Positions 12,245 through 45,133 of a DNA stretch of 64,000 bases are shown here, piece by piece. This stretch comes from an uncultured Bacillota bacterium. Its GTDB lineage: Bacteria; Bacillota; Dehalobacteriia; UBA7702. The notes under the pieces are model-generated. The model had not been told where the DNA came from. It saw only the letters and a program-made list of their open reading frames with translations, and ran no database searches. Each line of letters opens with the position of its first letter. Position 1 is the first letter of the stretch. Made by a program: the position numbers and the translations under genes. Location: contig CADBQN010000016.1 in NCBI GenBank assembly GCA_902796855.1, positions 7,038-71,037 on the forward strand, in the 5' to 3' direction.

Positions 12245-14605
<2,361 letters not shown>

Positions 14606-14779: not shown

Positions 14780-15199
14780 ATGAAGATCGCGGTCATCGAC
14801 GGCCAGGGCGGCGGGATCGGCAAACATATTATGGAAAAACTTCGGGCCCGTCTGCCGGAGGAAACGGAACTGATCGCGTTGGGGACGAATTCCCTGGCGA
14901 CGGCGCAAATGATGAAGGCCGGCGCCAGCGAGGGCGCCACCGGCGAAAGCGCCATTTGCTACATGGCGGACCGGGTGGATCTCATCACAGGGACCGTTTC
15001 CATTTTATCCGCCAATGCCATGCTGGGGGAAATATCACCCGCCATCGCTGCCGCCGTTGGCGGTTCCCGCGCGAAAAAATATCTCTTGCCGCTGAACAAA
15101 AGCGGCATCAGCGTCATCGGTGTCGTAAAGGAACCGCTGCCCCATCTTATCGATCAGCTTGTGGATATCATCGGAAAGGAAGGTTTTGATCATGTGTGA
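14780..15199 (+). CDS. DUF3842-like small protein
   Basis: 139 aa 'MKIAVIDGQGGGIGKHIMEKL...'; AGGAGAG RBS; overlaps the downstream CooT start. Confidence 0.5.
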   Translation: MKIAVIDGQGGGIGKHIMEKLRARLPEETELIALGTNSLATAQMMKAGASEGATGESAICYMADRVDLITGTVSILSANAMLGEISPAIAAAVGGSRAKKYLLPLNKSGISVIGVVKEPLPHLIDQLVDIIGKEGFDHV

Positions 15200-15386
15200 A
15201 GCGAATGTCTATATCCGCGACAAAGGGGAAAAAGAATATGAATTGCTGCTGGAATCCGTCGATAAGCTGATTCCCGGCGAAAACGAGATCATTGTTGAGA
15301 GCATCTTCGGGGAGCGGAAGATCGTCAAGGCGAAAATCGCCGACCTTTCCCTCGTCGATCATCGAATCCATCTGGAGAGGATCTGA
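15192..15386 (+). CDS. cooT: CooT-family nickel-binding protein
   Basis: 64 aa starting MCEANVY (Cys2, as in R. rubrum CooT MCMAKV...); AAGGAAGG RBS; ORF-track start at 15159 rejected in favour of the internal ATG. Confidence 0.65.
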   Translation: MCEANVYIRDKGEKEYELLLESVDKLIPGENEIIVESIFGERKIVKAKIADLSLVDHRIHLERI

Positions 15387-26185: not shown

Positions 26186-26218
26186 GCGCCGCCGGATGAT
26201 CCGGCGGCGTTGTTTCTT
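26186..26218. terminator. Bidirectional terminator hairpin (GCGCCGCCGG...CCGGCGGCG)
   Basis: GC-rich 9-10 bp stem between the flavodoxin (+) stop and CooT-like (-) stop. Confidence 0.45.
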
Positions 26219-26243
26219 GGGTTCGTGCGCGCTTATGATTCAC

Positions 26244-26420
26244 TTATTTGGATGTGACGTTGATGATGGATTCCGTAAAATCAATGGATTCGACTTCACC
26301 CGTGACGGTCTTTTCTTCCCCAAAGAGGGTGATGAAGGTCAATTCGTCGCCGTTTTGACGAAAATTGGTGACGCTTTGAGCGAAATCATTCTGATCGACA
26401 AAGACTTTGGCGAGACACAT
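26244..26420 (-). CDS. CooT-family nickel-binding protein (second copy), 58 aa
   Basis: Minus-strand ORF MCLAKVFVDQNDFAQSVTNFRQNGDELTFITLFGEEKTVTGEVESIDFTESIINVTSK; AAGGAGG RBS lies inside the last codons of the upstream gene; below the 60-aa ORF-track cutoff. Confidence 0.55.
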   Translation of the reverse strand: MCLAKVFVDQNDFAQSVTNFRQNGDELTFITLFGEEKTVTGEVESIDFTESIINVTSK

Positions 26421-26423
26421 TGT

Positions 26424-26636
26424 TTATTCCTCCTTTTTCGCCATTTCAAGGGCAGCTTCCAGTTTTTCGTTGGCCTGATCCTGAAGGGCTTTCGCCTCTT
26501 GAATCAGCGCGGCAATATCGGCTTTATCCATTTTTTCGGCGTTTTCGGCGATTTCACCGATTTCGTCGCTGTGGTGTTTGTTATGATGAAGCATGTGATC
26601 GAGAAGAATGGTCAGTTTTTCGCTGTTTAATTCCAT
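26424..26636 (-). CDS. Small His-rich helical protein (HMLHHNKHH motif), 70 aa, possible metal (Ni) chaperone
   Basis: MELNSEKLTILLDHMLHHNKHHSDEIGEIAENAEKMDKADIAALIQEAKALQDQANEKLEAALEMAKKEE; AAGGAG RBS; translationally coupled to the CooT-like gene. Confidence 0.5.
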   Translation of the reverse strand: MELNSEKLTILLDHMLHHNKHHSDEIGEIAENAEKMDKADIAALIQEAKALQDQANEKLEAALEMAKKEE

Positions 26637-26862
26637 GGAATACACTCCTTTTCTGTCGTTTCCTCCATTATATGCTTAATCTGACCAACAAGCAAGAATA
26701 AAATACGAAAATGCGAAAATAAAAACACCAAAGACGGAAAATTGAACATTTTATAATAGGAGATTGATTTCATTTCCGGAAAAAAATACCTTTCGCCCTT
26801 GAAAAAAACGATGATCTTTGGTATTCTAAAAGATATCAAATTTATATGGGAGAAAAATAAAT

Positions 26863-32803: not shown

Positions 32804-32945
32804 CAAAACAAACAGAACACAATAAATTTTACTATATAATTTTTCGTTTGAAATTTATAATAAGGATAACTGGTTATTGCGGATTGCCGCCGTCAGCGTT
32901 CAAAATATTCCGACAGCGTGTGATCTAAAGGGAGGAATTATCCGT

Positions 32946-33713
32946 ATGAAATTTGCCGTTTCCGGAAAAGGCGGCGTCGGAAAAACGACGTTATCCGCGA
33001 ATCTGGCCTTTCAGATGAGAGACAAAGGCTATCAGGTCTTTGCCATCGACGCCGATCCCGATTTGAGCCTCGGCACCGTTCTCGGTCTCAGCGAGGAAGA
33101 AGTTGAAAAACTTCAGCCCATCGTCGAGATGCGCGATCTCATCGTTGAGAGAACCCAGGGCGACGGCGCCATGTATGTACTTAATCCCGAAGTCGACGAT
33201 GTCTGGGAAGATTATTCCATCGACGTCAACGGCATTCGGTTTTTGAAAATGGGAGCCGTAAAAAAAAGAGGCTGCTATTGTCTGGAAAACACGTTTCTTA
33301 ACTCGCTGATCAACTCCATTGTCATCAAGACGAAGGAAGCCGTCCTCCTCGATATGGGGGCGGGGATCGAACATCTGACCCGCGGCACTTCCCGCGGCGT
33401 CGACTGCCTGATTATCGTCGTGGAACCTTCCGTTGTCAGCACCGACACGGCAAAGGTGACGAAAATGCTGGCCGAGGAAATCGGCATCAAAAACATTTAT
33501 TACGTGGGCAACAAGATCCGCAGCGAAAAAGAAATCGAGTTCCTGAAAACGAGAGTTCCCGCCGAGAACATTCTCGGCTGCATATCCTACAGCGACTACC
33601 TTCTCGACCTCGCCATGGGCGTGGAAGAGGAAGACAGTGAAGCGAAAGCGAAGTTCGACGGTGAAATCGCCGCCATCTTAAAGAGCATCGAGGATCGCCA
33701 CGGCGACGCCTGA
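32946..33713 (+). CDS. cooC: CODH nickel-insertion accessory ATPase CooC
   Basis: 'MKFAVSGKGGVGKTT' deviant Walker A of CooC/MinD family; GGGAGG RBS; first gene of the acs cluster. Confidence 0.85.
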   Translation: MKFAVSGKGGVGKTTLSANLAFQMRDKGYQVFAIDADPDLSLGTVLGLSEEEVEKLQPIVEMRDLIVERTQGDGAMYVLNPEVDDVWEDYSIDVNGIRFLKMGAVKKRGCYCLENTFLNSLINSIVIKTKEAVLLDMGAGIEHLTRGTSRGVDCLIIVVEPSVVSTDTAKVTKMLAEEIGIKNIYYVGNKIRSEKEIEFLKTRVPAENILGCISYSDYLLDLAMGVEEEDSEAKAKFDGEIAAILKSIEDRHGDA

Positions 33714-33798
33714 CGAGCACTTAAAACGGGGATCGCCCCGCTGAATTGAGGTTACAATGTTAAAAATTAAATAAATATATTTACCAAGGAGGTAAACC

Positions 33799-35826
33799 AT
33801 GCCTAGATTCAGAGATACGGAACTGTCATTATCACCTTCAGTACCTCGTAAGGAACGGGTAAAAGATCCTAAGAACATCATGCGTTCTGTGGATCCCGCC
33901 GCATTGGAAATGCTGGCACACTACAAAGACAGCGGCATCATCACCGGTTACGACCGTTATGTCGCTCAGCAGCCGCAGTGCGCATTCGGTTACGAAGGCG
34001 TCTGCTGCAAAATTTGCATCCAGGGTCCCTGCCGTGTGAAGGGAATGGAAGGCGCGAAGAGCAAGGGCGTTTGCGGCGCTCACGATTACACCATCGTTGC
34101 CCGCAACATCTCCCGTCTTGCCGCCGGCGGTGCTTCCGCCCACTCCGACCATGGTCGTGAAATCGTTTACACCCTGCTTGCCGCCGCCAGAGGCGAAACC
34201 GGTGACTTCAAAGTCAAAGACGAAGAAAAACTCCGCCGCGTTGCCGCCAACGTCGGTATCAGCGCCGAAGGCAAAGACGTCAACGCTCTCGCCGAAGAAG
34301 TCGCTCTTGCCGCTCTGAATGACTTCGGGAACATCACTTCCGAACCCTGCCGCTGGCTCACTTCTTATCTGACCGACGGCAGAAAGAAGAAATTCGAAGA
34401 CTGCAACATCGCCCCGACCTCCATTGACCGCGCTGTTGTCAACCTGCTCCACTCCACCCACATGGGTGTTGACGCTGATCCCGTCAACATTATCTTTACA
34501 GGTCTGAGAGCCGGCCTCGCCGACTACACCGGGATGCACATCTCCACCGATATCTCCGATATCGTTCTCGGTACTCCCGAACCCTGCGTCTCCGAAGCGA
34601 ACCTCGGTGTTTTGAAACCGAAAAAAGTTAATATCATTCTCCATGGTCACAACCCCATGCTCAGCCAGACTCTGGTTGACATCGGTCCCGAAATGGAAGA
34701 TGAAGCCAAAGCCGCCGGCGCCGAAGGCATCCAGTTCTCCGGTATCTGCTGCACCGGCAACGAAGTTCTCATGCGCTCCGGCGTTCCCATCGCCACCAAC
34801 TTCTCTTCTCAGGAACTCGCTATCATGACCGGCGTCGCCGACCTGATGATCGTTGACGTTCAGTGCATCATGCCCTCCATCCGTGCCGTTGCCGAATGCT
34901 TCAACACGAAGATCGTCACCACGATGAGCAACTCCAAGATCCCCGGTTCCGAACATATTGCTTTTGACGAAAAACACGCCGTCGAAAGCGCCAGAACCGT
35001 CATCCGCATGGCCATCGATTCCTTCAAACAGAGACAGGGCAAAGAATACTTTGTTCCCGATGTGAAGAGCAAAGTTATTGCCGGTTTCAGTGTTGAATCC
35101 ATCATGAACCTCTTCAGCAAGATTAACGCCGACGTTCCGATGCAGGCTCTCATCGATGAAATCGAAGCCGGCCGCATCAAAGGTGTCGCGTTCTTCTGCG
35201 GCTGCAACAACCTCGAATCCGTTCATGACCAGAACCATCTCGAAATCGTTAAAGGCCTGCTGAAAGAAAACGTTTTCGTTATCACTACCGGCTGCTCCGC
35301 TCAGGCGATGGCCAAAGCCGGCATTATGGATCCCGCTCATGTTGACGAACTCTGCGGTGAAAACCTTGCCGCGTTCCTCCATAAACTGGAAGAACTCAAC
35401 AAAGACACTCTGACCGACGGTCTTCCTTCCGCGTTCCATGTAGGCTCCTGCGTTGACTGCTCCCGCGCTCATGACTTCCTGACCCTGATGGCCAAGACCA
35501 TGGGTGTCGATACTCCTAAAGTTCCTTATGTCGCCACTGCCCCCGAAGCAATGAGCGAAAAAGCCATCTCCATCGGCTGCGGTTTCGTCGCTGACGGCGT
35601 TCCGACCCATGTCGGCACCATGCCTCCGATCGAAGGTTCCGCCTGCGTTTACGATATCGCCTGCAGAATCGCGTCCGACGTTTACGGCGGCTACTTCATC
35701 TTTGAAACCGATTATGCGAAAGCCACCGAAAAACTCCTCGCCGCTCTCGAATATCGTACTTGGAAGATGGGTGTCCACAAAGCTGTCGCTGAAAAATTCG
35801 ACGCTCCGTTGACTCAGAACTATTAA
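33799..35826 (+). CDS. acsA: Anaerobic carbon monoxide dehydrogenase catalytic subunit (CooS/AcsA)
   Basis: N-terminal Cys clusters 'CAFGYEGVCCKICIQGPCRV...GVCGA' (B- and D-cluster ligands), 675 aa, AAGGAGG RBS. Confidence 0.95.
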   Translation: MPRFRDTELSLSPSVPRKERVKDPKNIMRSVDPAALEMLAHYKDSGIITGYDRYVAQQPQCAFGYEGVCCKICIQGPCRVKGMEGAKSKGVCGAHDYTIVARNISRLAAGGASAHSDHGREIVYTLLAAARGETGDFKVKDEEKLRRVAANVGISAEGKDVNALAEEVALAALNDFGNITSEPCRWLTSYLTDGRKKKFEDCNIAPTSIDRAVVNLLHSTHMGVDADPVNIIFTGLRAGLADYTGMHISTDISDIVLGTPEPCVSEANLGVLKPKKVNIILHGHNPMLSQTLVDIGPEMEDEAKAAGAEGIQFSGICCTGNEVLMRSGVPIATNFSSQELAIMTGVADLMIVDVQCIMPSIRAVAECFNTKIVTTMSNSKIPGSEHIAFDEKHAVESARTVIRMAIDSFKQRQGKEYFVPDVKSKVIAGFSVESIMNLFSKINADVPMQALIDEIEAGRIKGVAFFCGCNNLESVHDQNHLEIVKGLLKENVFVITTGCSAQAMAKAGIMDPAHVDELCGENLAAFLHKLEELNKDTLTDGLPSAFHVGSCVDCSRAHDFLTLMAKTMGVDTPKVPYVATAPEAMSEKAISIGCGFVADGVPTHVGTMPPIEGSACVYDIACRIASDVYGGYFIFETDYAKATEKLLAALEYRTWKMGVHKAVAEKFDAPLTQNY

Positions 35827-35852
35827 TAAAAAGGACGAAAGGAGGATATACA

Positions 35853-38036
35853 ATGTCTTTTGAAGAAATCTATAATGGTGCTGTTGAAGAAGGTAAAGAA
35901 CCTAAGAGACTTTTTAAACAGGCTCAGGAAGGTGCCATCATCGCCACCAGTTATGCTGAAATCCTGTTGACACAGGCGATCAAAAAATATGGTGCGGAAA
36001 CAGAACTCCACTATCCCGACACTGCGTATTATCTCCCCGTTATCAGTGCTCTCAGCGGTGAAAAAGTCGAAACTCTCGGCCAGCTGCCTGCGATCCTGAA
36101 CAAAAAACGGGCTCAGATTTTTGAACCCCTCACGTTTGAAAATGCTCGTCTCGCCGGTGAATCCACTCTGTTCGCCGCCGAAATCATCGAAGCATTGAAA
36201 TACATCGAAACCGACAAACCCTACGAAGAACCGTGGCTCGGCTTCATCGGTGACCCCGTTGTCCGTAAATACGGGATCAAAATGGTTGACTGGACCATCC
36301 CCGGCGAAGCGATCATCCTCGGCCGTGCCAAAGACTCCAAATCCGCCGCGAAAATCGTCGCGAAACTGATGGGCCAGGGCATGATGCTGTTCCTCAGCGA
36401 CGAAGTCTGCGAACAGCTCCTCGAAGAAAACGTCAAACTCGGTCTCGACTACATCGCTTATCCTCTCGGCAACTTCACTCAGGTTGTTCATGCCGCCAAC
36501 TACGCGCTCCGCGCCGGTATGATGTTCGGTAACATTCCTCTCGGTGAAACCGAAAACCAGAGAGATTACCAGAGAAGAAGAATCATGGCCTTCGGTATTC
36601 ACCTCGGTGAAAGAGACGAAGTTAAGACCGCCGCTGAATTCGGCTGCATCTATCTCGGCTTCCCCATCGTTACCGACCAGGTTCTCGCTGAAGACGAAGA
36701 ACTCAACGACTGGTACGTTTCCGAACCCGATTACGATAAGATCGTCGGTCTCGCCATGGAAATCCGTGGGGTCAAACTGACCAACATCGAAATCGATATC
36801 CCCATCAACCAGGGTCCCGCCTTTGAAGGTGAAACCATCCGTAAAGGCGATATGTACTATGAAATGGGGAACAACAAGTCCGAAGCGTTCGAACTCGTCC
36901 GCATGGTTGACGCCGATCATATTGAAGACGGCAAAATCACCGTTGTCGGCCCCGAAACCAACGAATTCAACGAAGGCGACAAAGTGCCCATCGGTATCGT
37001 CGTTGACATCTATGGCCGCAAAATGCAGGAAGACTTCGAAGGTGTTCTCGAACGCCGTGTTCACTACTTCATCAACTATGGTGAAGGTCTCTGGCATGTT
37101 AACCAGCGTGATACCGTTTGGATGCGTGTCAGCAAAGACGCCATCGCCAAAGGCTTCCGCTTCCATGACTATGGCGAAATCCTCATTGCCAAATACAAAC
37201 AGGAATATTCCGCCATCGTCGACCGCGTACAGGTTACCATCTACACCGACGCGGAAGAAGTTTCCAAAATGCACAAAGTCGCGAAAGAAGTTTACACCGC
37301 TCGCGATAACCGCCTGAAAGAACTGAGAGACGAAAAAGTCGATACGTTCTACAGCTGCCTGCTCTGTCAGTCCTTCGCTCCGAACCATGTCTGCATCCTG
37401 ACTCCCGAACATGTCGGTCTCTGCGGTGCTGTTTCCTGGCTCGACGCGAAAGCCGCCTATGAAATCGACCCCAACGGCGCCAACCAGCCTGTTGAAAAGG
37501 GCGAACCCATCGACGAAGAAAAAGGCCAGTGGCAGACATGCAACGATTACTTCTATAAAGAATCGCACCAGAACCTCGAAATCGTTAACCTCTATACAAT
37601 GATGGAATTCCCCGCTTCCTCCTGCGGTTGCTTCGAAGCCATCATGGCGGTTATCTTCGAATGCAACGGTATCGCGATCGCGACCCGTAACCATACCGGC
37701 ATGACGCCCAGTGGTATGACCTTCTCCACCTTGGCCGGTTCCTGCGGCGGTGGTGTTCAGACCCCCGGCTTCCTCGGTATTGGCCGCGCTTATCTCACTT
37801 CCGGTAAATTCATCCCCGCCGACGGCGGCCGCGCCAGAATCGTCTGGATGCCTACCGAATTGAAAGAAGAAATCCGTGATGAATTTAACGCCGCTTGTGA
37901 AGCTGATGGTCTTGGGCCCAACTTCATCGACAAGATCGCTGACGAAACCGTCGGTGAATCTGCCGAAGAAATTCTTCCCTGGCTGGAAGAACAGGGTCAT
38001 CCCGCTCTCACCATGCCCGACATCATGGGTGAATAA
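35853..38036 (+). CDS. acsB: Acetyl-CoA synthase (ACS) catalytic subunit, CODH/ACS complex
   Basis: 727 aa; A-cluster motifs 'CLLCQSFAPNHVC' and 'SCGCFE'; AAAGGAGG RBS. Confidence 0.95.
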   Translation: MSFEEIYNGAVEEGKEPKRLFKQAQEGAIIATSYAEILLTQAIKKYGAETELHYPDTAYYLPVISALSGEKVETLGQLPAILNKKRAQIFEPLTFENARLAGESTLFAAEIIEALKYIETDKPYEEPWLGFIGDPVVRKYGIKMVDWTIPGEAIILGRAKDSKSAAKIVAKLMGQGMMLFLSDEVCEQLLEENVKLGLDYIAYPLGNFTQVVHAANYALRAGMMFGNIPLGETENQRDYQRRRIMAFGIHLGERDEVKTAAEFGCIYLGFPIVTDQVLAEDEELNDWYVSEPDYDKIVGLAMEIRGVKLTNIEIDIPINQGPAFEGETIRKGDMYYEMGNNKSEAFELVRMVDADHIEDGKITVVGPETNEFNEGDKVPIGIVVDIYGRKMQEDFEGVLERRVHYFINYGEGLWHVNQRDTVWMRVSKDAIAKGFRFHDYGEILIAKYKQEYSAIVDRVQVTIYTDAEEVSKMHKVAKEVYTARDNRLKELRDEKVDTFYSCLLCQSFAPNHVCILTPEHVGLCGAVSWLDAKAAYEIDPNGANQPVEKGEPIDEEKGQWQTCNDYFYKESHQNLEIVNLYTMMEFPASSCGCFEAIMAVIFECNGIAIATRNHTGMTPSGMTFSTLAGSCGGGVQTPGFLGIGRAYLTSGKFIPADGGRARIVWMPTELKEEIRDEFNAACEADGLGPNFIDKIADETVGESAEEILPWLEEQGHPALTMPDIMGE

Positions 38037-38137
38037 TCCGCGCGTAATAACAATTTAGTTCCCAGCTCAGACGGGTGCTTAACAGCACTCGTCTGAGTAA
38101 TGATAATCAACAATTTTTGAAAGGAGTTGTGTATAGA

Positions 38138-39463
38138 ATGGGATTAACAGGTTTGGCTATTTTTAAGCAGCTGCCTAAGAAGAACTGTAAAGAATGCGGT
38201 GTTGCAACTTGCATGGCATTCGCGATGGCTCTGGCGGCCGGGAAAGCGTCTTTGGATGCTTGCCCCTACGTAACGGATGAAGCGAAGGAAGCTTTGGATT
38301 CCGCCGCTGCTCCTCCGATCAAGACGGTTAAAGTTGGTGTTGGTGAAAAAGAAGTCGTTTTGGGTGATGAAACTGTTCTGTTCCGTCATGACAAGACTTT
38401 CTTCCATCCCACCGGCCTCGGCTTCCTCGTTGATGACAATGACGCCGAACTCGACGCTAAGATCGACAACATCGACGGTCTGCAGTTTGACCGCGTCGGT
38501 CAGCATTATGTTGTTGAATTCGTAACCCTCAACAACGCTTCCGGTGATGCCGCCGCTTTCGCCGCCGCCGCTGAAAAAGCCGCCGCGAAAAAAGCCGTTA
38601 TTTTGAAAGCTGATGATCCCGCTGTCCTGAGCGCCGCTCTCGACAAGATCGCCGCTGAAAAACCCCTCATTTACGCCGCTACCGCCGATAACTACGAAGC
38701 TATCACGGAAGTCGCCAAAAAATACGAAGTTCCCATGGCCGTTTACGCTGAAGGTCTCGATGCTCTCGAAGATCTCGTCAACAAAATCGTTGCTCTCGGC
38801 TACAAAGAACTCGTGATCGATCCCGGCAGCAGACAGACCGCGCAGGTTCTTGCTGACATGACTCAGATCCGTCGTCTTGCCGTTAAAAAGACCTTCCGTC
38901 CCTTTGGCTATCCCACCATCACCTTCACTTCCGAAGAAGATGCTCTTGACGAAGCCATCCAGGCCGTTGCCTATGTTGCCAAATACTGCAGCATCGTCGT
39001 GATGAAGAACGCGATCAAAGGTTATGTACTGCCGATCCTTTCCTGGAGACAGAACGTATTTACCGATCCTCAGAAACCGGTCGCCGTTGAACCGAAACTT
39101 ATGGAAATCGGTGCCGTTACTCCGGATTCTCCTTTATACATTACGACCAACTTCTCTCTCTCCTACTACAGCGTAGAAGGCGAAGTCGAAGCCAGCCGTA
39201 TTCCTTCCTACATTATCCCCATCGATACCGATGGTACTTCCGTCCTGACCTCTTGGGCTGCCGGTAAATTCGGCGGTGAACAAATCGCTGCCGCGATGAA
39301 AGCCAACGACATGGATTCCAAGCTCAACCACAAAGACGTTATCATCCCCGGTTTCGTTGCCGTTATCGCTGCGAAATTGAAAGATGAAACCGGCTGGAAC
39401 GTTATCGTCGGGCCGAAAGAAGCTTCCGGTATCTCCGGTTTTGCGAAAGCCAACTTTGCTTAA
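38138..39463 (+). CDS. acsC: Corrinoid iron-sulfur protein large subunit (CFeSP gamma)
   Basis: 'MGLTGLAIFKQLPKKNCKECGVATCMAFAMALAAGKASLDACPY' 4Fe-4S N-terminal motif; ATG after AAAGGAG preferred over upstream ORF-track start. Confidence 0.9.
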   Translation: MGLTGLAIFKQLPKKNCKECGVATCMAFAMALAAGKASLDACPYVTDEAKEALDSAAAPPIKTVKVGVGEKEVVLGDETVLFRHDKTFFHPTGLGFLVDDNDAELDAKIDNIDGLQFDRVGQHYVVEFVTLNNASGDAAAFAAAAEKAAAKKAVILKADDPAVLSAALDKIAAEKPLIYAATADNYEAITEVAKKYEVPMAVYAEGLDALEDLVNKIVALGYKELVIDPGSRQTAQVLADMTQIRRLAVKKTFRPFGYPTITFTSEEDALDEAIQAVAYVAKYCSIVVMKNAIKGYVLPILSWRQNVFTDPQKPVAVEPKLMEIGAVTPDSPLYITTNFSLSYYSVEGEVEASRIPSYIIPIDTDGTSVLTSWAAGKFGGEQIAAAMKANDMDSKLNHKDVIIPGFVAVIAAKLKDETGWNVIVGPKEASGISGFAKANFA

Positions 39464-39494
39464 TAGCCTAATTATTTAAGACAGGTGATATTAC

Positions 39495-41390
39495 GTGGAT
39501 AAACTTCAAGTAACCATTATGCCCGAAGGGCTCAGTGTTGAAGTCGAAAAAGGTTCGACTTTATTGGACGCGGCAAACGCGGCCGGCATTACGTTAAAAA
39601 GCTCCTGCGGCGGTCAGGGAACCTGCGGACGCTGCGCCGTCAAGGTCCTTGAAGGCACCGTCAACGGCGGCGACGGCAATATGTCCAAAGCCAAGCGCGC
39701 GGAGGGGTACATCCTCGCCTGCACCGCGAAGGTGGAAGACGGTCCCGTTACCGTTGAGTTCCCGGAAAGCTCCCGTCTTTCCGAACATCAGGTGCTTCTT
39801 GATGACAGTCTCGACGAAATCATCAAGGAAAGTCAGGTAGACGATTTTGAACACAGTGACGAGGCCTTTGTAAAGAAGGTTCAGGTCACGATGAGCGAAC
39901 CGAACCTGATGGAAAACGTTGATGACCTTTCGAGACTCAGCGCGGAATTAAAAGGCATTTTGGGCACGGAAAATATCACCATTTCCTACAATGCTTTAAA
40001 AACACTTCCTGCCAAAGTTCGTGAAGGGAATTGGCAAGTCACCGTGACGTGTCTCATAACGGATGAATCCGCTGAGGTGATCCGTGTGGAACCTGGTTAT
40101 GTCGATACGCCGCCTTACGGCATCGCGCTCGACATCGGCACAACGACCGTCGTTGCCGCTCTCGTTGACTTGGCCACCGGAAAGAAACTTCGTCAGGCCG
40201 GCACCTTTAACCGTCAGGCCGGGATGGGGGACGACGTGATCTCCCGTATCGTCTATACCGAAGAGGAAAAAGACGGTTTAAAGGAAATTCAGGACGTAGT
40301 CATCGAGACGATCAACGATCTCCTCGAAGAGCTCTACGCCAAAGAAAACATCGGCGCGGAAGATGTTTCCGCGATGATGGTCGCCGCCAATACGACGATG
40401 ATTCATCTCTTCCTCGGTGTTGAACCGATGTATATCAGAAGAGAACCCTATATTCCCGGTGTCTGTGACGCTCCCATTATCAAGGCGAAAGAACTCGGTC
40501 TCCATATTCATGAAGACGGTTCTGTCATCTGCTTCCCCTCGGTCGCGAGTTATGTCGGCGGCGATATCGTTTCCGGCGCGCTTCTGACAGGCATCGAAAA
40601 GCAGGATGAATTTTGGCTTTTCCTCGATATCGGTACCAATGGCGAAATGGTTCTCGGTAACAGCGATCTGCTGATGTGCTGTGCCTGTTCGGCAGGGCCT
40701 GCCTTTGAAGGCGGCGGCATTGCCTTTGGGATGAGAGCCATGGACGGCGCCATTGAAAAGATCGTGATTGACGATGAATTCAACGTCTCCTACGCGACGG
40801 TCGGGAACGCCGCCCCCGTGGGCATCTGCGGTTCCGGTCTGATCGACTGCTTATCGACGCTGAGAACGGCGGGAGTCATCAACCGCCAGGGCAAGATGCA
40901 GGACATCAGCAGCGATCGTATGCGTGAAGGCGATGAAGGCCCCGAATTCGTTCTCGTTTACGCTGACGAAACGGGCATCGGAAAAGACATTGTCATCACC
41001 GAAGCGGATATCGAAAACCTGATCCGGGCGAAAGCCGCGGTCTTTGCCGGCATTCGCATCATGCTGAGCAAAATGGAACTTCCTTTGGAAGCGGTCAGCA
41101 AGATTCTGATCGGCGGCGGTTTCGGGAATTACCTGAACCTGAACGACTCCATTCGCATCGGTCTGTTGCCGGATCTCCCCGCGGAGCTCTACAGCTTTAT
41201 CGGGAACAGCTCCCTGAAAGGGGCCTATATGGCGCTTTTGAGCAGAAGTGTCTTTAAACACAGCGTTGAATTAGGTCAGAGCATGACCTATCTGGAACTG
41301 TCTGATGGGAATGAATTCTATGATGAGTATGTACAGGCTATGTTCCTGCCTCATACCGACATGAGTCTCTTCCCGTCGTTAGAAGACTGA
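39495..41390 (+). CDS. Reductive activator of CFeSP (RACo/AcsV-like): 2Fe-2S ferredoxin N-terminus + ASKHA ATPase
   Basis: GTG start; 'CGGQGTCGRCAV' plant-type ferredoxin cysteines; 631 aa. Confidence 0.8.
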   Translation: MDKLQVTIMPEGLSVEVEKGSTLLDAANAAGITLKSSCGGQGTCGRCAVKVLEGTVNGGDGNMSKAKRAEGYILACTAKVEDGPVTVEFPESSRLSEHQVLLDDSLDEIIKESQVDDFEHSDEAFVKKVQVTMSEPNLMENVDDLSRLSAELKGILGTENITISYNALKTLPAKVREGNWQVTVTCLITDESAEVIRVEPGYVDTPPYGIALDIGTTTVVAALVDLATGKKLRQAGTFNRQAGMGDDVISRIVYTEEEKDGLKEIQDVVIETINDLLEELYAKENIGAEDVSAMMVAANTTMIHLFLGVEPMYIRREPYIPGVCDAPIIKAKELGLHIHEDGSVICFPSVASYVGGDIVSGALLTGIEKQDEFWLFLDIGTNGEMVLGNSDLLMCCACSAGPAFEGGGIAFGMRAMDGAIEKIVIDDEFNVSYATVGNAAPVGICGSGLIDCLSTLRTAGVINRQGKMQDISSDRMREGDEGPEFVLVYADETGIGKDIVITEADIENLIRAKAAVFAGIRIMLSKMELPLEAVSKILIGGGFGNYLNLNDSIRIGLLPDLPAELYSFIGNSSLKGAYMALLSRSVFKHSVELGQSMTYLELSDGNEFYDEYVQAMFLPHTDMSLFPSLED

Positions 41391-41418
41391 CATCGGTTAT
41401 ATGAGAGGATGATATTCT

Positions 41419-42183
41419 ATGGCAAAAATGGCAAAACACATCGCCCTCGTTGGTAAAGGCGGCGTTGGCAAAACGACATTGACGACGATGATCTGCCGGT
41501 ACCTCGAAGAAAACGATAAGGGGATTGTTTTGGCGGTCGATGCCGATCCCAACGCCAACCTCAACGAAGCGCTCGGAATGGAATTTTCTTCCTGTATTTC
41601 AGATGTTATTGAGGACACGAAACGTCCTCACGCGGTTCCTGACGGCATGTCAAAGGAACGATACGTTGAATACAGATTGCAGGACGCGCTGATCGAAGGC
41701 GATAAGAACCTCGATATGCTGATTATGGGCGGTCCTCAGGGACCGGGCTGCTACTGCTACGCGAACGACCTTTTGAGAGGCTATATTGAGCGCCTTGAAA
41801 AGAATTACGATTATCTCGTCATGGACAGCGAGGCCGGTATGGAGCATATCAGCCGCCGCACCGTTCAGGATGTGGATGTCATGTTCATCGTCAGCGACGC
41901 GTCGGCTCGCGGGGTCCGCACGATTACACGGATCTACGATCTTGTGAAAAACCTGAAAACAAAGGTTAAATCTGTTTACGCGATCGTTACAAAAGCATCG
42001 GAAGAAACCATAAACGACTTGCAGGAGGAACTTGAAAAAACAGGTGTCGAATTCGCCGGCTTCATTCCTTTTGACCCTCAGGTCTTTGAGTATGACGCGA
42101 AGGGCAAACCCCTTTACGAACTGCCGGAAGACGCTCCCGTTGTAAAAGCTTCCTACGCAATTTTTGATAAGATTAAATTATAA
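41419..42183 (+). CDS. acsF: CooC-type nickel-insertion ATPase (AcsF) for ACS
   Basis: 'HIALVGKGGVGKTT' Walker A; 254 aa; second CooC-family gene in the cluster. Confidence 0.85.
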   Translation: MAKMAKHIALVGKGGVGKTTLTTMICRYLEENDKGIVLAVDADPNANLNEALGMEFSSCISDVIEDTKRPHAVPDGMSKERYVEYRLQDALIEGDKNLDMLIMGGPQGPGCYCYANDLLRGYIERLEKNYDYLVMDSEAGMEHISRRTVQDVDVMFIVSDASARGVRTITRIYDLVKNLKTKVKSVYAIVTKASEETINDLQEELEKTGVEFAGFIPFDPQVFEYDAKGKPLYELPEDAPVVKASYAIFDKIKL

Positions 42184-42209
42184 GCCGATTATTTGAAAGG
42201 AGAACAAAA

Positions 42210-43175
42210 ATGGCTGTACAGATTTTAAAAGAAAAGTATGCCCAACCCGTCCGTGCTTTTAAGCTCGGCAACACCGCGGAAGAAGGCGGCACTCGCGGCT
42301 ACTCCCTGACGGTTGGTGGCGAAGGCACGCTTCCTTTCCAACATTATGAAGGTGAAAACCCCAACAAACCCATCGTCGCGATGGAAGTTAACTCCAATAA
42401 ACAACTCGACTGGAAAGATACCCTTGTTGACGCTATCGGCAAAGACGTTGTCGCCGATCCCGCCAAATGGGCCCAGTTCAACAAAGAAGCCGGCGCTGAC
42501 GCCATCTATCTGAAACTGGACTCCGCCGATCCCGATAAGGGTGGCGATTCCCCCGAAGCCTGCGCTCAGATCGCCAAAGACGTTCTGGCCGCTGTGGATC
42601 TTCCTCTCATCGTTGCCGGTTCCGGTAACGCCACCGTTGACGAAGAAGTTCTGATGGCTGTTGCCGAAGCGACCAAAGGCGAAGGTCTGCTCCTCGGTTT
42701 TGCTGAAACCGAACATTACAAAGCCCTCGTCGCCGCCTGCCTGGGCAACGGTCATGGCATCATCGCCAGATCTCCCCTCGACATCAACATCTGCAAACAG
42801 CTCAACATTCTCATCGGCGAAATGAACATGCCGATGGAAAGAATCGTCATTGACCCCCTCGTTTCCTCCGTTGGTTATGGTATTGAATATGCCTACTCCA
42901 TCATGGAACGCGGCCGCATCGGCGCTCTCACCGGTGACAAAACCCTCGCTATGCCTCTCATCGCTACCGTCGGTTTCGAAGCCTGGAGACAGAAAGAAGC
43001 CTGGGGCACCACCGAAGAATACGCCGAATGGGGCGAACAGAGCCAGCGTGGTCCCGCTTGGGAAGCTACCACTGCCGCCGCTTGCCTCCAGGGTGGTGTT
43101 GACATTCTCTGCATGAGACATCCTGACGCTGTTAAAACCATCAAACATCAGATTGATGCTTTAATGACGAAATAA
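42210..43175 (+). CDS. acsD: Corrinoid iron-sulfur protein small subunit (CFeSP delta)
   Basis: 321 aa TIM-barrel-like 'MAVQILKEKYAQPVRAFKLG', position and size as in Moorella AcsD. Confidence 0.85.
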   Translation: MAVQILKEKYAQPVRAFKLGNTAEEGGTRGYSLTVGGEGTLPFQHYEGENPNKPIVAMEVNSNKQLDWKDTLVDAIGKDVVADPAKWAQFNKEAGADAIYLKLDSADPDKGGDSPEACAQIAKDVLAAVDLPLIVAGSGNATVDEEVLMAVAEATKGEGLLLGFAETEHYKALVAACLGNGHGIIARSPLDINICKQLNILIGEMNMPMERIVIDPLVSSVGYGIEYAYSIMERGRIGALTGDKTLAMPLIATVGFEAWRQKEAWGTTEEYAEWGEQSQRGPAWEATTAAACLQGGVDILCMRHPDAVKTIKHQIDALMTK

Positions 43176-43237
43176 AGAATCAACTACTTTTGTCCTTTTG
43201 GATTCTTTATTAAATAATGTGATAGGAGGAACTAGTA

Positions 43238-44053
43238 ATGAAAATTATTGGTGAAAGATGTAACGGGATGTTCCTCGACATCCGCGAAGGCATCCAGAAA
43301 AGAGATCCCCAGCCCCTGATCGACTGGGCGAAAAAACAGGAAGAAATGGGTGCTGACTGGATCGACCTCAATGCCGGTCCCGCCTGCGCTAACGAAGCCG
43401 AACGTGTTGAAGCCATGAAATGGATGGTTGAAGTCGTTCAGCCCGCTACCAAACTTCCTCTGGCTCTCGACTCCACGAACTATGACGCCATCGAAGAAGG
43501 CCTGAAACTCATCGACGAAGCTCATATTCATGACACTCTGATCAACTCCGTTCCCTGCGAACAGGAAAAAATGGACAGAGTTTTCGCGATGGCCGCCGAA
43601 TTTGGCTGCAAAGTCGTTTGCCTCACCATGGACGCCAAAGGTGTTCCTCAGGAAGCTGAAAGCCGTGTCGCTATGGCGATGGAACTCGTTGCCAACGCTG
43701 ATATGGCCGGTGTTCCCAGTGACGACCTTTACATTGACCCCCTGATTCTTCCCTGCAATGTCGCTCAGTTCCATTGCCCGGAAGTTCTGAAAGCTTTGGC
43801 TCAGATCAAGACTCTTGCGGATCCCGCTCCCAACACCGTTCTCGGTCTCTCCAACGTTTCTCAGAAATCGCCTGACCGTTCCTTGCTCAACAGAACTTAC
43901 CTCGCCATGGGCGCTTCCTGCGGCCTTGACGCTGTCATCGCTGACCCCTGCGACGACGCTCTGATGGAAGTCGCTGCTTCCACCGAAGTTCTCCTGAACA
44001 AGAAGATCTATGCTGATTCCTACGTAAAAGTTTATCGCGAAAAGAATCTCTAA
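43238..44053 (+). CDS. acsE: Methyltetrahydrofolate:corrinoid/iron-sulfur protein methyltransferase
   Basis: Pterin-binding (DHPS-like) 'MKIIGERCNG ... GADWIDLNAGPA'; 271 aa. Confidence 0.9.
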   Translation: MKIIGERCNGMFLDIREGIQKRDPQPLIDWAKKQEEMGADWIDLNAGPACANEAERVEAMKWMVEVVQPATKLPLALDSTNYDAIEEGLKLIDEAHIHDTLINSVPCEQEKMDRVFAMAAEFGCKVVCLTMDAKGVPQEAESRVAMAMELVANADMAGVPSDDLYIDPLILPCNVAQFHCPEVLKALAQIKTLADPAPNTVLGLSNVSQKSPDRSLLNRTYLAMGASCGLDAVIADPCDDALMEVAASTEVLLNKKIYADSYVKVYREKNL

Positions 44054-44304: not shown

Positions 44305-44826
44305 TCATTCCTCCGGAGCCGCTTCTTCCGCTTTTTTGTTCTTACTCCTCCACAGGGAATTTGCCGGCATAACGAGGCCGGCGCAGATCACGCCGAAGAG
44401 GACGGAAATCATCGCCTGGACTTCCGCGCCGTAAAACCCGGTCAGGAAACAGGTGGAAACACTGCAAACCATCAGCGGAGCGTAACGCAGAACGGTGTTT
44501 TGAAAAACACCCAGATACAGATAAAAAGCAACGATTCCGAAAATCATTCCTCCGACCAGGTTCCCACCCATATCCCCAAGAAGAGGAACCGTGGCGAGGG
44601 TCAGCAGCCAGAAGAACAGATATCCCCATGCCCAGCCGGACAGAGCGCTGATGAAATAATGCGGAAGTTTCTTTGGATCCATGCCCAACGCCACCGTACA
44701 GGCAAAGCCAACAAAGCAATAGCCGATTGTGGCGCCTAAGGGGAAGTTCGGGATGTTGTAAATGAGGCAAAGAAGTCCAACGAAAACGGCGAGCGTAACG
44801 GATAATTTCAGGGCATCTTTGTTCAT
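44305..44826 (-). CDS. Integral membrane protein (DUF1097-like), about 173 aa
   Basis: Multiple hydrophobic helices; start set at MNKDA with AAGGAGG RBS; terminator hairpin ACCGCGCTGCGGCGGT near 44195-44215. Confidence 0.5.
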   Translation of the reverse strand: MNKDALKLSVTLAVFVGLLCLIYNIPNFPLGATIGYCFVGFACTVALGMDPKKLPHYFISALSGWAWGYLFFWLLTLATVPLLGDMGGNLVGGMIFGIVAFYLYLGVFQNTVLRYAPLMVCSVSTCFLTGFYGAEVQAMISVLFGVICAGLVMPANSLWRSKNKKAEEAAPEE

Positions 44827-45133
44827 CGTTCTTACCTCCTTTTGTGTCAGCAACCTTTCTGTATGCATTTTTATAAGCGGACCTCTCACAAAATCACCGT
44901 AGCATGAACGTTTCTTTTTGTCAAGTTCGGAATCATTCTTTTATAAAATTATGACATAAAATAATAAATTATATTTAATTTGTTTTATGTGATTTTTGTT
45001 TGCGGAAGATAGAACGAACAAAAAGAGGTACGGCATTATTTTCAGTCTTTGAACATAAGGTTTATATTGCGTTTTTCGCGAAAATTCTGTATAATGAATA
45101 AGAAAAAAAGAAGCGTAAAACGCTTCTTTTTTG

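What the first reader, a model, noticed from the sequence alone, without database searches (positions are those of the whole stretch)
26244..26636. Translationally coupled His-rich coiled-coil protein + second CooT-like nickel protein (CooJ/CooT-like pair) on the minus strand
Two small minus-strand genes below or near the ORF-track size cutoff: a 70-aa helical protein with an HMLHHNKHH histidine cluster, and, 3 nt after its stop with the RBS AAGGAGG embedded in its last codons, a 58-aa protein starting MCLAKVFV (Cys2 and overall pattern of CooT nickel-binding proteins). A first CooT (MCEANVY, 15192-15386) plus two CooC ATPases occur elsewhere in the window. In Rhodospirillum the CODH maturation set is CooC-CooT-CooJ, with CooJ a His-rich coiled-coil; this small partner could be a minimal CooJ analog. 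The 58-aa gene would be missed by standard gene callers.
Basis: partly seen in the sequence, partly recalled or inferred. Interest (0 to 1): 0.55.

Follow-up and report, generated by a model that had tools for sequence, protein, structure and literature searches.

The report
Tail-less CooJ-like protein plus CooT
Two tiny, tightly coupled genes encode a CooT nickel chaperone and a histidine-lined helical hairpin (database family DUF8180) that looks like the metal-binding core of the nickel chaperone CooJ; this is an under-annotated variant of a known system, not a new kind of system.

Summary
On the minus strand, a 70-aa ORF (26636-26424) and a 58-aa ORF (26420-26244) are separated by 3 nt, and the RBS AAGGAGG lies inside the last codons of the first ORF. 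Both are real genes: dN/dS is 0.06 and 0.12 against a relative whose DUF8180 protein is 73% identical, the junction is conserved, and public gene calls include both.

The 58-aa protein is a CooT. It scores 43 bits on PF10133 (cut-off 27), has Cys2, and a profile of its clade matches solved CooT structures at 5e-11.

The 70-aa protein belongs to Pfam DUF8180. I read that family as the structured, high-affinity nickel-site domain of CooJ:
- It keeps the H-x3-H-x3-H(-x2-E) register.
- RrCooJ (6HK5) is the top PDB hit of the family profile (E 0.007; hhalign probability 78%).
- About half of the family members carry His-rich tails.
- 99 of 117 genomic copies sit beside cooT, often followed by cooC and CODH/ACS genes.

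The window copy has no His-rich tail, has Met where CooJ has Trp/Phe, and lies about 6-7 kb from the ACS/CODH cluster in its own transcription unit. It is therefore CooJ-like, not a canonical CooJ. Nickel binding is inferred, not shown. The claim that gene callers would miss the 58-aa gene is wrong.

The parts
26424..26636 (-). 70-aa DUF8180 (PF26551) protein, the CooJ-like helical hairpin. The conserved metal-site register is H14-x3-H18-x3-H22-x2-E25, with extra His at 17 and 21. There is no His-rich tail. Coordinates include the stop codon.
   Evidence: Sequence and ORF. The identical protein P0001 carries a precomputed PF26551 hit. H18 and H22 are invariant in 138 family domains. AlphaFold2 predicts a hairpin with helices at 5-35 and 39-68, pLDDT 96.3. 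RrCooJ 6HK5 is the top PDB hit of the family profile, E 0.0068. dN/dS is 0.063.
26244..26420 (-). 58-aa CooT (PF10133) of the RrCooT-like 'MCLA/MCLS' type, with Cys2. Coordinates include the stop codon.
   Evidence: Pfam 43 bits against a cut-off of 27. The clade profile matches 6FAN at 5.4e-11 and 5N76 at 8.4e-10. dN/dS is 0.115. It is called as a gene with a CooT hit on related contigs.
26421..26435 (-). Coupling junction. RBS AAGGAGG (26435-26429) lies inside the last codons of the upstream gene, followed by stop TAA (26426-26424), the 3-nt spacer ACA, and the ATG at 26420.
   Evidence: Read directly. The same arrangement (AAGGAGGACTAAATCATG) occurs in L001. In 89 genomes cooT follows DUF8180 on the same strand; the commonest gaps are 1-16 nt and the longest is 245 nt.
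26645..26695 (-). Probable promoter and RBS of the two-gene unit: -35 TTGCTT (26695-90), a 17-nt spacer, -10 TATAAT (26672-67), and RBS AAGGAG (26650-45) 8 nt before the ATG.
   Evidence: Read. The -35, -10 and RBS blocks are conserved in the L001 upstream region, while the flanks diverge. The consensus scan did not list it, because the -35 matches only 3 of 6 positions. This is an inference.
26187..26209 (-). Intrinsic-terminator-like hairpin with a 10-bp stem (9 GC pairs) followed by CTTTCTTATT, starting 34 nt after the cooT stop. On the other strand it can also serve the convergent flavodoxin gene.
32877..44053 (+). Context and likely client: the ACS/CODH (Wood-Ljungdahl) cluster. It holds a CooC-like ATPase (32877-33713), CODH (33799-35826), AcsB (35853-38036), AcsC, RACo, CooC (41419-42183), AcsD and AcsE. 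The cluster contains no cooT or DUF8180 gene of its own.
   Evidence: Pfam hits. HMM and phmmer scan of all window ORFs.
14780..15386 (+). Context: a second pair of small partner plus CooT. DUF3842 (14780-15199) overlaps the start of a ChCooT-like CooT (15192-15386), and nadE follows.

Best explanation
The locus is a self-contained two-gene operon with its own promoter and terminator. It encodes a nickel-handling pair.

The upstream product is a 70-residue antiparallel helical hairpin of Pfam family DUF8180. I interpret this family as the structured, high-affinity-site domain of the CODH accessory protein CooJ. By analogy with RrCooJ, two hairpins should pack into a four-helix bundle. The bundle core would be interrupted by His18 and His22 (invariant in the family), His14 and Glu25, giving an inter-subunit Ni(II) site. 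In this sub-family the usual disordered His-rich tail is absent. Two extra His residues (17 and 21) flank the site instead.

The downstream product is a CooT. CooT proteins are small beta-proteins that dimerise and bind one Ni(II) through Cys2. The 3-nt gap and the embedded RBS suggest coupled translation in roughly equal amounts. The two proteins probably act as a relay. They would capture or buffer Ni(II) and pass it, with the CooC-type ATPases, to the CODH C-cluster and possibly the ACS A-cluster, encoded 6-7 kb downstream.

Shown here: the genes are real and conserved; CooT membership; DUF8180 membership; the hairpin prediction; the family-wide linkage to cooT, cooC and CODH.

Inferred: homology to CooJ, dimerisation, Ni(II) binding, the direction of transfer, and CODH/ACS as the client.
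For: The genes are real and coupled. The promoter blocks are conserved and a terminator follows.

CooT membership: PF10133 at 43 bits against 27; the clade profile matches solved CooTs at 5e-11 to 1e-9; Cys2 is present in all 103 complete unique adjacent CooTs.

DUF8180 membership: precomputed PF26551 hits on identical and related proteins. There are 220 family hits at E<=1e-3 among 1.84 billion representatives. H18 and H22 are invariant and N19 nearly so.

Link to CooJ:
- 6HK5 aligns over residues 5-63, with H14/H18/H22/E25 on CooJ H18/H22/H26/E29.
- 6HK5 is the top PDB hit of the 138-sequence profile, E 0.0068.
- hhalign gives probability 77.8%, P 1.9e-5.
- The window sub-family is clearly homologous to members carrying the canonical HWxxHxxxH motif (hhalign 98.9%, E 1e-17). 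That motif is cited as the CooJ metal site in bioRxiv 10.64898/2026.03.10.710785.
- 79 of 149 representatives have His-rich N- or C-terminal extensions.
- Members with HW plus a C-terminal His tail lie in cooT-then-DUF8180 order, as in R. rubrum cooT-cooJ.

Gene context: 99 of 117 genomic copies have cooT adjacent on the same strand. Within the 8-kb blocks, CooC occurs in 36, CODH in 15 and AcsB in 13. Examples are DUF8180-CooT-CooC-AcsE-AcsB and DUF8180-CooT-(MetF)-CooC-CODH-CooC in Blautia, Marvinbryantia and Laedolimicola.

Structure: AlphaFold2 predicts a hairpin with pLDDT 96.3.

The window carries a full ACS/CODH cluster with two CooC-type ATPases and no cooT or DUF8180 of its own.
Against: - The sequence link to the only solved CooJ is marginal. 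phmmer gives E 0.31. The narrow profile A1 loses the hit. The HW-only profile gives E 0.06 and rank 3.
- The window protein lacks the His-rich tail that gave CooJ its description, and has Met where the published motif has Trp/Phe.
- The pair is not inside the CODH/ACS operon here.
- In other lineages the pair sits beside Fur-family regulators with ZnuABC-type transporters, or beside CsoR/RcnR-type repressors. Metal specificity and client are therefore not fixed by context.
- No metal-binding or interaction data exist for any DUF8180 member that I could find (no paper mentions DUF8180).
Confidence: 0.68

Rival explanations
1. The pair is a general metal-homeostasis module, for nickel or for another metal such as zinc or cobalt. 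It would buffer, store or route metal under the control of metal sensors, and would not be a dedicated CODH/ACS maturation factor. CODH would be only one of several possible clients.
For: - In the window the pair is its own transcription unit between hom and a flavodoxin gene, outside the ACS/CODH cluster.
- Of the 89 loci with cooT directly downstream, 53 show no CooC, CODH or ACS gene in the 8-kb block. Among the 17 loci with at least 3 kb on both sides, 11 show none.
- The arrangement Fur-DUF8180-CooT-ZnuA-ABC recurs in Chloroflexota.
- CsoR/RcnR-family genes lie next to the pair in Oscillospiraceae, and one lies next to a Nik/Opp-type ABC transporter.
- A FecCD-type transporter is adjacent in L060.
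- The review PMC6006190 states that 26 of 111 CooT-containing proteomes lack CODH.
Against: - The single most frequent annotated neighbours after cooT are CooC, CODH, MetF and ACS genes.
- The window genome does have a CODH/ACS cluster with CooC ATPases nearby.
- The 8-kb blocks are not centred on the gene, so absence of CODH is weakly informative.
- This rival overlaps the main explanation in mechanism and differs only in the client.
Confidence: 0.22
2. The resemblance to CooJ is convergent or coincidental. On this view DUF8180 is an unrelated small helical protein, for example a partner or regulator of CooT, an anti-repressor, or a subunit of a dimetal four-helix bundle. Its His residues would serve another role.
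For: - E-values to 6HK5 are only 0.007 to 0.3.
- The next PDB profile hits are diiron four-helix-bundle proteins (sulerythrin, symerythrin, rubrerythrin) and designed helical proteins at similar scores.
- The fold searches are non-specific.
- Pfam files the family as a DUF.
Against: - The match to CooJ covers the full length and puts all four proposed ligands in register.
- The family shows the same two hallmarks as published CooJ homologues: the H(W/F)xxHxxxH motif, and His-rich regions at either terminus.
- It has the same gene partners, in both known orders.
- The diiron-protein matches cover only helix 2 and not the His motif.
Confidence: 0.08
3. One or both small ORFs are spurious, and the real feature is the 144-aa plus-strand ORF 26196-26630 or a non-coding region.
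For: A 144-aa ORF overlaps the region on the opposite strand.
Against: - dN/dS is 0.06 and 0.12 in the minus-strand frames.
- Both minus-strand products have Pfam family hits.
- The RBS and junction are conserved.
- Hundreds of homologues exist.
- There is no Rfam match apart from weak, below-threshold matches over the terminator hairpin.
Confidence: 0.01

Closest known systems
CooJ of Rhodospirillum rubrum (PDB 6HK5), the nickel-binding CODH accessory protein
   Same: - A two-helix antiparallel hairpin of about 65 residues.
- The His-x3-His-x3-His-x2-Glu register aligns residue for residue.
- It is encoded next to cooT.
- The organism has Ni-CODH and CooC.
   Different: - It lacks the C-terminal tail. 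Rr CooJ has 16 His in its C-terminal domain (PMC6006190).
- Met15 replaces the Trp/Phe of the published motif.
- Two extra His (17 and 21) lie within the site.
- The gene order is DUF8180 then cooT, not cooT then cooJ.
- It is not in the cooS operon.
- Sequence similarity is only marginal (E 0.007 with a family profile).
CooJ homologues with N-terminal His-rich regions (Shewanella fodinae and Clostridium pasteurianum BC1 CooJ, described in bioRxiv 10.64898/2026.03.10.710785), and the 'potential CooJ' genes of clade E CODH operons (eLife PMC13056359)
   Same: - They share the conserved helical core with the HxxxHxxxH site.
- The DUF8180 family includes many members with N-terminal His-rich regions, placed ahead of cooT-cooC-CODH in one-carbon clusters of Lachnospiraceae. 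This matches the published description of clade E operons.
   Different: - The window protein has no His-rich region at either end. The reading frame is closed by a stop three codons upstream of the GTG.
- I could not obtain the published sequences to compare them directly.
CooT (RrCooT 5N76, ChCooT 6FAN)
   Same: - The 58-aa protein passes the Pfam CooT threshold and has Cys2, the Ni ligand identified by mutagenesis in RrCooT (PMC6006190).
- Its clade profile matches both solved CooTs.
   Different: - It is shorter (58 aa against 63-66).
- It contains no His at all, so it cannot form a Cys2/His site of the ChCooT kind. The existence of that site is from my recollection, not checked here.
- On its own sequence it does not reach solved CooTs by phmmer.
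- The window's other CooT (15192-15386) is the ChCooT-like one.
Other His-rich nickel chaperone or storage proteins (HypB N-terminal extension, SlyD, UreE, Hpn)
   Same: They are small or modular proteins that use clustered His residues to hold Ni(II) for delivery to a nickel enzyme. This comparison is general knowledge and was not tested here.
   Different: There is no sequence or fold relationship. Those proteins rely mainly on disordered His-rich stretches, whereas here the His residues are fixed on a helix.

Membership tests
CooT (Pfam PF10133) | Sequence match to the family model above the curated threshold | tested here: met
   43.0 bits against a gathering score of 27; E 5.5e-11; residues 1-54 on profile positions 1-58 of 60.
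CooT (Pfam PF10133) | Cysteine at position 2, the Ni(II) ligand in RrCooT | tested here: met
   MCLAKV.... All 103 complete unique DUF8180-adjacent CooTs start with MC. M1 and C2 are the only invariant columns.
CooT (Pfam PF10133) | Relationship to experimentally solved CooT proteins | tested here: met
   The clade profile A6 matches 6FAN at 5.4e-11, 5N76 at 8.4e-10 and 6Y8V at 1e-9. The single sequence alone finds none of them.
CooT (Pfam PF10133) | Dimer that binds one Ni(II) with nanomolar affinity | not testable with these tools
   Needs ITC, CD or SEC on the purified protein.
DUF8180 (Pfam PF26551) | Sequence match to the family model | tested here: met
   The identical protein P0001 and all 60 listed homologues carry a precomputed PF26551 hit. 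The model is absent from the local Pfam copy, so I could not rescore it.
CooJ (as defined from R. rubrum CooJ and its published homologues) | High-affinity-site His triad with i, i+4, i+8 spacing (H..xxHxxxH) on helix 1 | tested here: met
   H14, H18 and H22 align with CooJ H18, H22 and H26, and E25 aligns with E29. H18 and H22 are invariant in 138 family domains.
CooJ (as defined from R. rubrum CooJ and its published homologues) | Aromatic Trp/Phe directly after the first His, as in H(W/F)X2HX3H | tested here: not met
   The window protein has Met15. In the family this pair of positions is YM, HW, HM or HL.
CooJ (as defined from R. rubrum CooJ and its published homologues) | Histidine-rich, disordered tail at the C- or N-terminus | tested here: not met
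   The protein runs from MELN... to ...KKEE* with no extension possible. By contrast, 79 of 149 family representatives do have such a region.
CooJ (as defined from R. rubrum CooJ and its published homologues) | Two-helix coiled-coil monomer that forms a homodimer | tested here: inconclusive
   AlphaFold2 predicts the hairpin with helices at 5-35 and 39-68, pLDDT 96.3. The dimer could not be modelled. Fold searches are non-specific.
CooJ (as defined from R. rubrum CooJ and its published homologues) | Statistically significant sequence similarity to RrCooJ | tested here: inconclusive
   phmmer E 0.31. Family profile E 0.0068 and top rank. hhalign probability 77.8%. HW-type profile E 0.06. Narrow profile: no hit.
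CooJ (as defined from R. rubrum CooJ and its published homologues) | Encoded with cooT, cooC and cooS | tested here: inconclusive
   cooT is adjacent (met). cooC and CODH are 6.2-7.2 kb away in another transcription unit. For the family, cooT is adjacent in 99 of 117 loci, CooC occurs in 36 blocks and CODH in 15.
CooJ (as defined from R. rubrum CooJ and its published homologues) | Binds Ni(II) and supports CODH activation when nickel is scarce | not testable with these tools
   Requires biochemistry and genetics.

The most novel reading that the evidence does not exclude
DUF8180-CooT may be a widespread, portable two-protein nickel (or broader metal) relay of anaerobes that is not tied to CODH. 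In different lineages it is placed under Fur-type or CsoR/RcnR-type metal sensors and next to ZnuABC-, Nik/Opp- or FecCD-type importers. The tail-less, five-His form in this window would then be a minimal cytoplasmic metal buffer or hand-off pair serving several nickel enzymes. On this reading 'CooJ' and 'CooT' would be misnamed as CODH-specific factors.
Probability: 0.25. Interest if true: 0.55.

Novelty: new variant of a known kind. Interest (0 to 1): 0.4.

Why it matters
How nickel reaches the CODH C-cluster and the ACS A-cluster is still unclear. The roles of CooT and CooJ are described as undetermined in the review PMC6006190, and CooJ is noted to be hard to recognise by sequence (eLife PMC13056359; bioRxiv 10.64898/2026.03.10.710785).

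If DUF8180 is the CooJ core domain, three things follow:
- Hundreds of 'hypothetical' genes can be annotated.
- The His-rich tail would be dispensable in nature, since about half of the family lacks it.
- CooJ-like and CooT proteins would form an obligate gene pair (85% adjacency). That argues for a direct protein-protein nickel hand-off that can be tested with two very small proteins.

The tail-less version in this window would be a convenient minimal model. For acetogen engineering it flags two small genes, outside the ACS/CODH cluster, that may be needed for full enzyme activity when nickel is scarce.

Tried and rejected
1. Local Pfam and NCBIfam scans of the 70-aa protein gave only sub-threshold noise (DUF5617, Gon7). 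PF26551 is not in the local copy.
2. A narrow profile of 24 close relatives searched against the PDB lost the CooJ hit.
3. Searching the 5.8-billion-protein set with the RrCooJ fragment found nothing, so I could not build a true CooJ alignment.
I replaced it with a hand-made degenerate DNA pattern, which worked.
6. A profile of only the canonical HW-type members did not improve the match to 6HK5 (E 0.06).
7. phmmer of the 58-aa CooT alone against the PDB found only chance PDZ and GGDEF matches. The clade profile was needed.
8. The primary CooJ papers (Alfano 2019, Darrouzet 2021) are not held. The CooJ accession sheet of the eLife supplement was truncated.
9. No riboswitch or other RNA family was found around the pair.
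10. I looked for a conserved operator palindrome in the promoter. Only the -35, -10 and RBS blocks, plus an upstream T-rich block, are conserved between the window and L001, and no clear palindrome is present. With two distinct sequences this is not informative.
11. The gene upstream of cooT in L139 is not CooC.
Full report
**1. What is in the sequence**

Reading the minus strand gives a compact unit.
- A probable promoter: -35 TTGCTT at 26695-90, a 17-nt spacer, and a perfect -10 TATAAT at 26672-67.
- An RBS, AAGGAG (26650-45), 8 nt before an ATG at 26636.
- A 70-codon ORF ending in TAA at 26426-24.
- Three bases (ACA), then an ATG at 26420.
- A 58-codon ORF ending at 26244.
- After a 34-nt gap, a GC-rich hairpin (26209-26187) followed by CTTTCTTATT.

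AAGGAGG (26435-29) lies inside the last codons of the first gene. The ORF listing extends the first ORF to a GTG at 26645, but all homologues begin MELN.

**2. Are the genes real?**

Yes.
- An identical 70-aa protein and a 99% identical one are already in public collections. Twenty-three further proteins at 70-80% identity were found.
- On contigs from gut and other metagenomes, both genes are called in the same order and in the same neighbourhood as in the window: hom / pair / flavodoxin / beta-CASP metallo-hydrolase / gatB. They carry the Pfam labels DUF8180 and CooT.
- Against the orthologous pair in L001 (73% protein identity for the first gene), dN/dS is 0.063 for the first gene and 0.115 for the second. 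The junction AAGGAGG-N-TAA-3 nt-ATG is preserved.
- The -35, -10 and RBS blocks are conserved upstream while the surrounding sequence diverges.
- The overlapping 144-aa plus-strand ORF is therefore a shadow ORF.
- No RNA family matches the region.

**3. The 58-aa protein is a CooT**

- It scores 43 bits on PF10133 against a cut-off of 27, and it has Cys2.
- I collected the cooT genes lying next to DUF8180 genes in other genomes. All 103 complete unique sequences start with MC, and M1 and C2 are the only invariant columns.
- A profile of this clade matches the solved CooT proteins 6FAN, 5N76 and 6Y8V at 5e-11 to 1e-9. The single sequence alone does not reach them.
- According to the review PMC6006190, RrCooT is a 7-kDa dimer that binds one Ni per dimer (Kd 9 nM) through Cys2.

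The window's other CooT (15192-15386, 79.8 bits) is closer to the Carboxydothermus type. It is preceded by an overlapping DUF3842 gene. The genome therefore has two different 'small partner + CooT' pairs.

**4. The 70-aa protein: family and shape**

The local Pfam and NCBIfam copies give nothing significant. The precomputed annotation of the identical protein is PF26551, DUF8180. No paper in the library mentions that name.

A profile of the close relatives, searched against 1.84 billion representative proteins, finds 220 proteins at E<=1e-3.
- They are 55-150 residues long and share one core, roughly LLx(H/Y)(M/W)LxHNxxHxxEL, followed by a second helix.
- In 138 trimmed domains, H18 and H22 (window numbering) are invariant and N19 is nearly so. 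Position 14 is His or Tyr.
- Of 149 representatives, 74 have an N-terminal extension with at least four His (often 15-35 His), 5 have a C-terminal one, and 70 have neither.
- The window protein has neither. Instead it has five His within HMLHHNKHH.

AlphaFold2 predicts a very confident helical hairpin with helices at 5-35 and 39-68, pLDDT 96.3. From the heptad pattern, H18, H22 and E25 fall on core positions, where a hydrophobic layer would normally be. This suggests an interfacial site, but it is an inference.

**5. Is DUF8180 the CooJ core?**

Evidence for:
- (a) phmmer of the window protein against all PDB sequences puts RrCooJ (6HK5) second. The alignment is full-length (residues 5-63 on 9-65). 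H14, H18, H22 and E25 fall on CooJ H18, H22, H26 and E29, within the CooJ segment LAHFLDHVEGHMGEIG.
- (b) With the 138-sequence profile, 6HK5 becomes the top PDB hit at E 0.0068. hhalign gives 77.8% probability, P 1.9e-5, over 55 columns.
- (c) The published CooJ metal-site motif is HWXXHXXXH, as cited in bioRxiv 10.64898/2026.03.10.710785. It occurs literally in about a quarter to a third of the family. That HW subgroup is unambiguously homologous to the window's subgroup (hhalign 98.9%, E 1.3e-17).
- (d) His-rich regions at either terminus are what that preprint describes for the R. rubrum (C-terminal) and S. fodinae / C. pasteurianum (N-terminal) CooJ.
- (e) Gene context, described in section 6.

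Evidence against:
- The E-values to 6HK5 are marginal.
- The narrow profile and the HW-only profile do not improve them.
- Fold searches are uninformative for a hairpin.
- I could not obtain further bona fide CooJ sequences.

Both recent papers note that CooJ cannot be recognised by NCBI or eggNOG annotation, because only small parts of it are conserved. That fits with Pfam filing this family as a DUF.

**6. Gene neighbourhoods**

Individual look-ups gave these arrangements:
- DUF8180-CooT-CooC-AcsE-AcsB-RACo-DUF3786.
- DUF8180-AcsE-CODH-CooC-AcsB-CooT.
- Fur-DUF8180-CooT-ZnuA-ABC-ABC3.
- A Nik/Opp-type ABC transporter divergent from methyltransferase-CsoR/RcnR-DUF8180.
- A stand-alone DUF8180-CooT pair.
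- For two members with HW plus a C-terminal His tail, CooT then DUF8180, once preceded by MTHFR.

For a larger sample I scanned one genome per species with a degenerate DNA pattern for L-[LMIV]-x-[HY]-[MW]-[LIV]-x-H-N-x-x-H-x-x-E-[LFIM].
Of these, 117 contain an ORF that matches the DUF8180 profile.
- cooT lies on the same strand directly downstream in 89. The commonest gaps are 1-16 nt and the longest is 245 nt. cooT lies directly upstream in 10, and those 10 are the HW type. In total, 99 of 117 have cooT adjacent.
- Within the 8-kb blocks, which are not centred on the gene, CooC occurs in 36, CODH in 15, AcsB in 13, MetF in 11, Fur-family genes in 10, CsoR/RcnR-family genes in 6, ZnuA in 5, and HGD-D-family genes in 8 plus 5.
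- In Lachnospiraceae acetogens (Blautia, Marvinbryantia, Laedolimicola, Anaerosacchariphilus) the order is DUF8180-CooT-(MetF)-CooC-CODH-CooC. [quoted passage not shown]
- Hosts are anaerobes: Clostridia, Chloroflexota (Dehalococcoidia, Anaerolineae), Desulfobacterota and a few others.

**7. The window's own context**

The pair sits between hom/aspartate kinase, which are divergent from it, and a convergent flavodoxin gene. An ACS/CODH cluster lies on the other strand. It contains a CooC-like ATPase, CODH, AcsB, AcsC, RACo, CooC, AcsD and AcsE at 32877-44053. It begins about 6.2 kb from the pair, and the CODH gene begins about 7.2 kb away. A scan of all window ORFs finds only one DUF8180 and two CooTs, none inside that cluster. 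The cluster is therefore the obvious candidate client, but the link is by proximity and family-level association only.

**8. Mechanism proposed**

- Shown: two conserved genes that are probably translationally coupled; CooT and DUF8180 membership; the hairpin prediction; the family-wide association with cooT, cooC and CODH/ACS and with metal regulators and importers.
- Inferred: the hairpin dimerises into a four-helix bundle like RrCooJ. H18 and H22 (plus H14 and E25) form an inter-subunit Ni(II) site. H17 and H21 may substitute for the missing tail as local capture ligands. Nickel is then handed to the CooT dimer (Cys2) and, with the CooC ATPases, to CODH and perhaps ACS.
- The main alternative keeps the chemistry but widens the role to general metal homeostasis, because of the Fur/ZnuABC and CsoR contexts and the many stand-alone pairs.

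**9. Classification and novelty**

- The CooT call is ordinary.
- The 70-aa protein is a member of DUF8180. I do not file it as a canonical CooJ, because two published hallmarks were tested and not met: the His-rich tail and Trp/Phe in the motif. Similarity to RrCooJ is also marginal. It most likely works like the CooJ high-affinity site and is probably homologous to it.
- From memory, not checked here, Darrouzet et al. (J Inorg Biochem 2021) already enlarged the CooJ family to about 150 members with two to four His in the site. A tail-less, five-His member paired with CooT outside the operon is therefore a new variant of a known kind, not a new system.
- The useful by-products are annotation-level. 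DUF8180 probably equals the CooJ core. DUF8180 and CooT form a near-obligate gene pair. The pair also occurs beside metal sensors and importers.

**10. Verdict**

Confidence in the nickel-relay explanation is about 0.68, and interest is moderate (0.40).

Noticed in passing
window 14780-15386 (+): A second pair of small partner plus CooT. A DUF3842 gene (180 bits) overlaps, through ATGTGA, the start of a ChCooT-like CooT (79.8 bits). nadE follows directly. The function of DUF3842 and its link to CooT are unexplained.
   Followed up: partly
window 12245-14605 (-): A class A penicillin-binding protein (transglycosylase plus transpeptidase) with an N-terminal poly-Lys stretch. Its long acidic C-terminal tail contains roughly 45 consecutive Gln.
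   Followed up: no
L022, L079, L101, L115, L124, L008/L009 (Chloroflexota / Dehalococcoidia): A recurrent arrangement: Fur-family regulator, DUF8180, CooT, ZnuA, ABC ATPase. It places the pair inside what looks like a metal-uptake operon of the Zn/Mn type rather than a CODH operon.
   Followed up: partly
L025, L094, L113, L125, L133, L138, L010/L011 (Oscillospiraceae and other Clostridia): A CsoR/RcnR-family metal-sensing repressor gene (PF02583) lies next to DUF8180. In L010/L011 it is also divergent from a Nik/Opp-type ABC transporter.
   Followed up: partly
L024, L031, L062, L081, L089, L090, L126, L017/L018: DUF8180-CooT, sometimes with a CooC-like ATPase, repeatedly neighbours HGD-D-family genes (2-hydroxyglutaryl-CoA dehydratase D-component-like). 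The meaning is unknown.
   Followed up: no
L038, L043, L047, L055, L060, L067, L074, L091, L095, L100: Members with the canonical HWxxHxxxH motif (Desulfobacterota, Chloroflexota, Kiritimatiellia) have the reverse gene order, cooT then DUF8180, as in R. rubrum cooT-cooJ. No CooC or CODH is visible in the available blocks. In L060 a FecCD-type transporter lies upstream and an FmdE-TrmO fusion downstream.
   Followed up: partly
window 32877-33713 (+) and 41419-42183 (+): The ACS/CODH cluster holds two CooC/MinD-type ATPases, one directly upstream of the CODH gene and one between RACo and AcsD. They may be one maturase each for the C-cluster and the A-cluster.
   Followed up: no
window 44305-44889 (-): A 194-aa ORF just after the ACS/CODH cluster has no Pfam match.
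   Followed up: no
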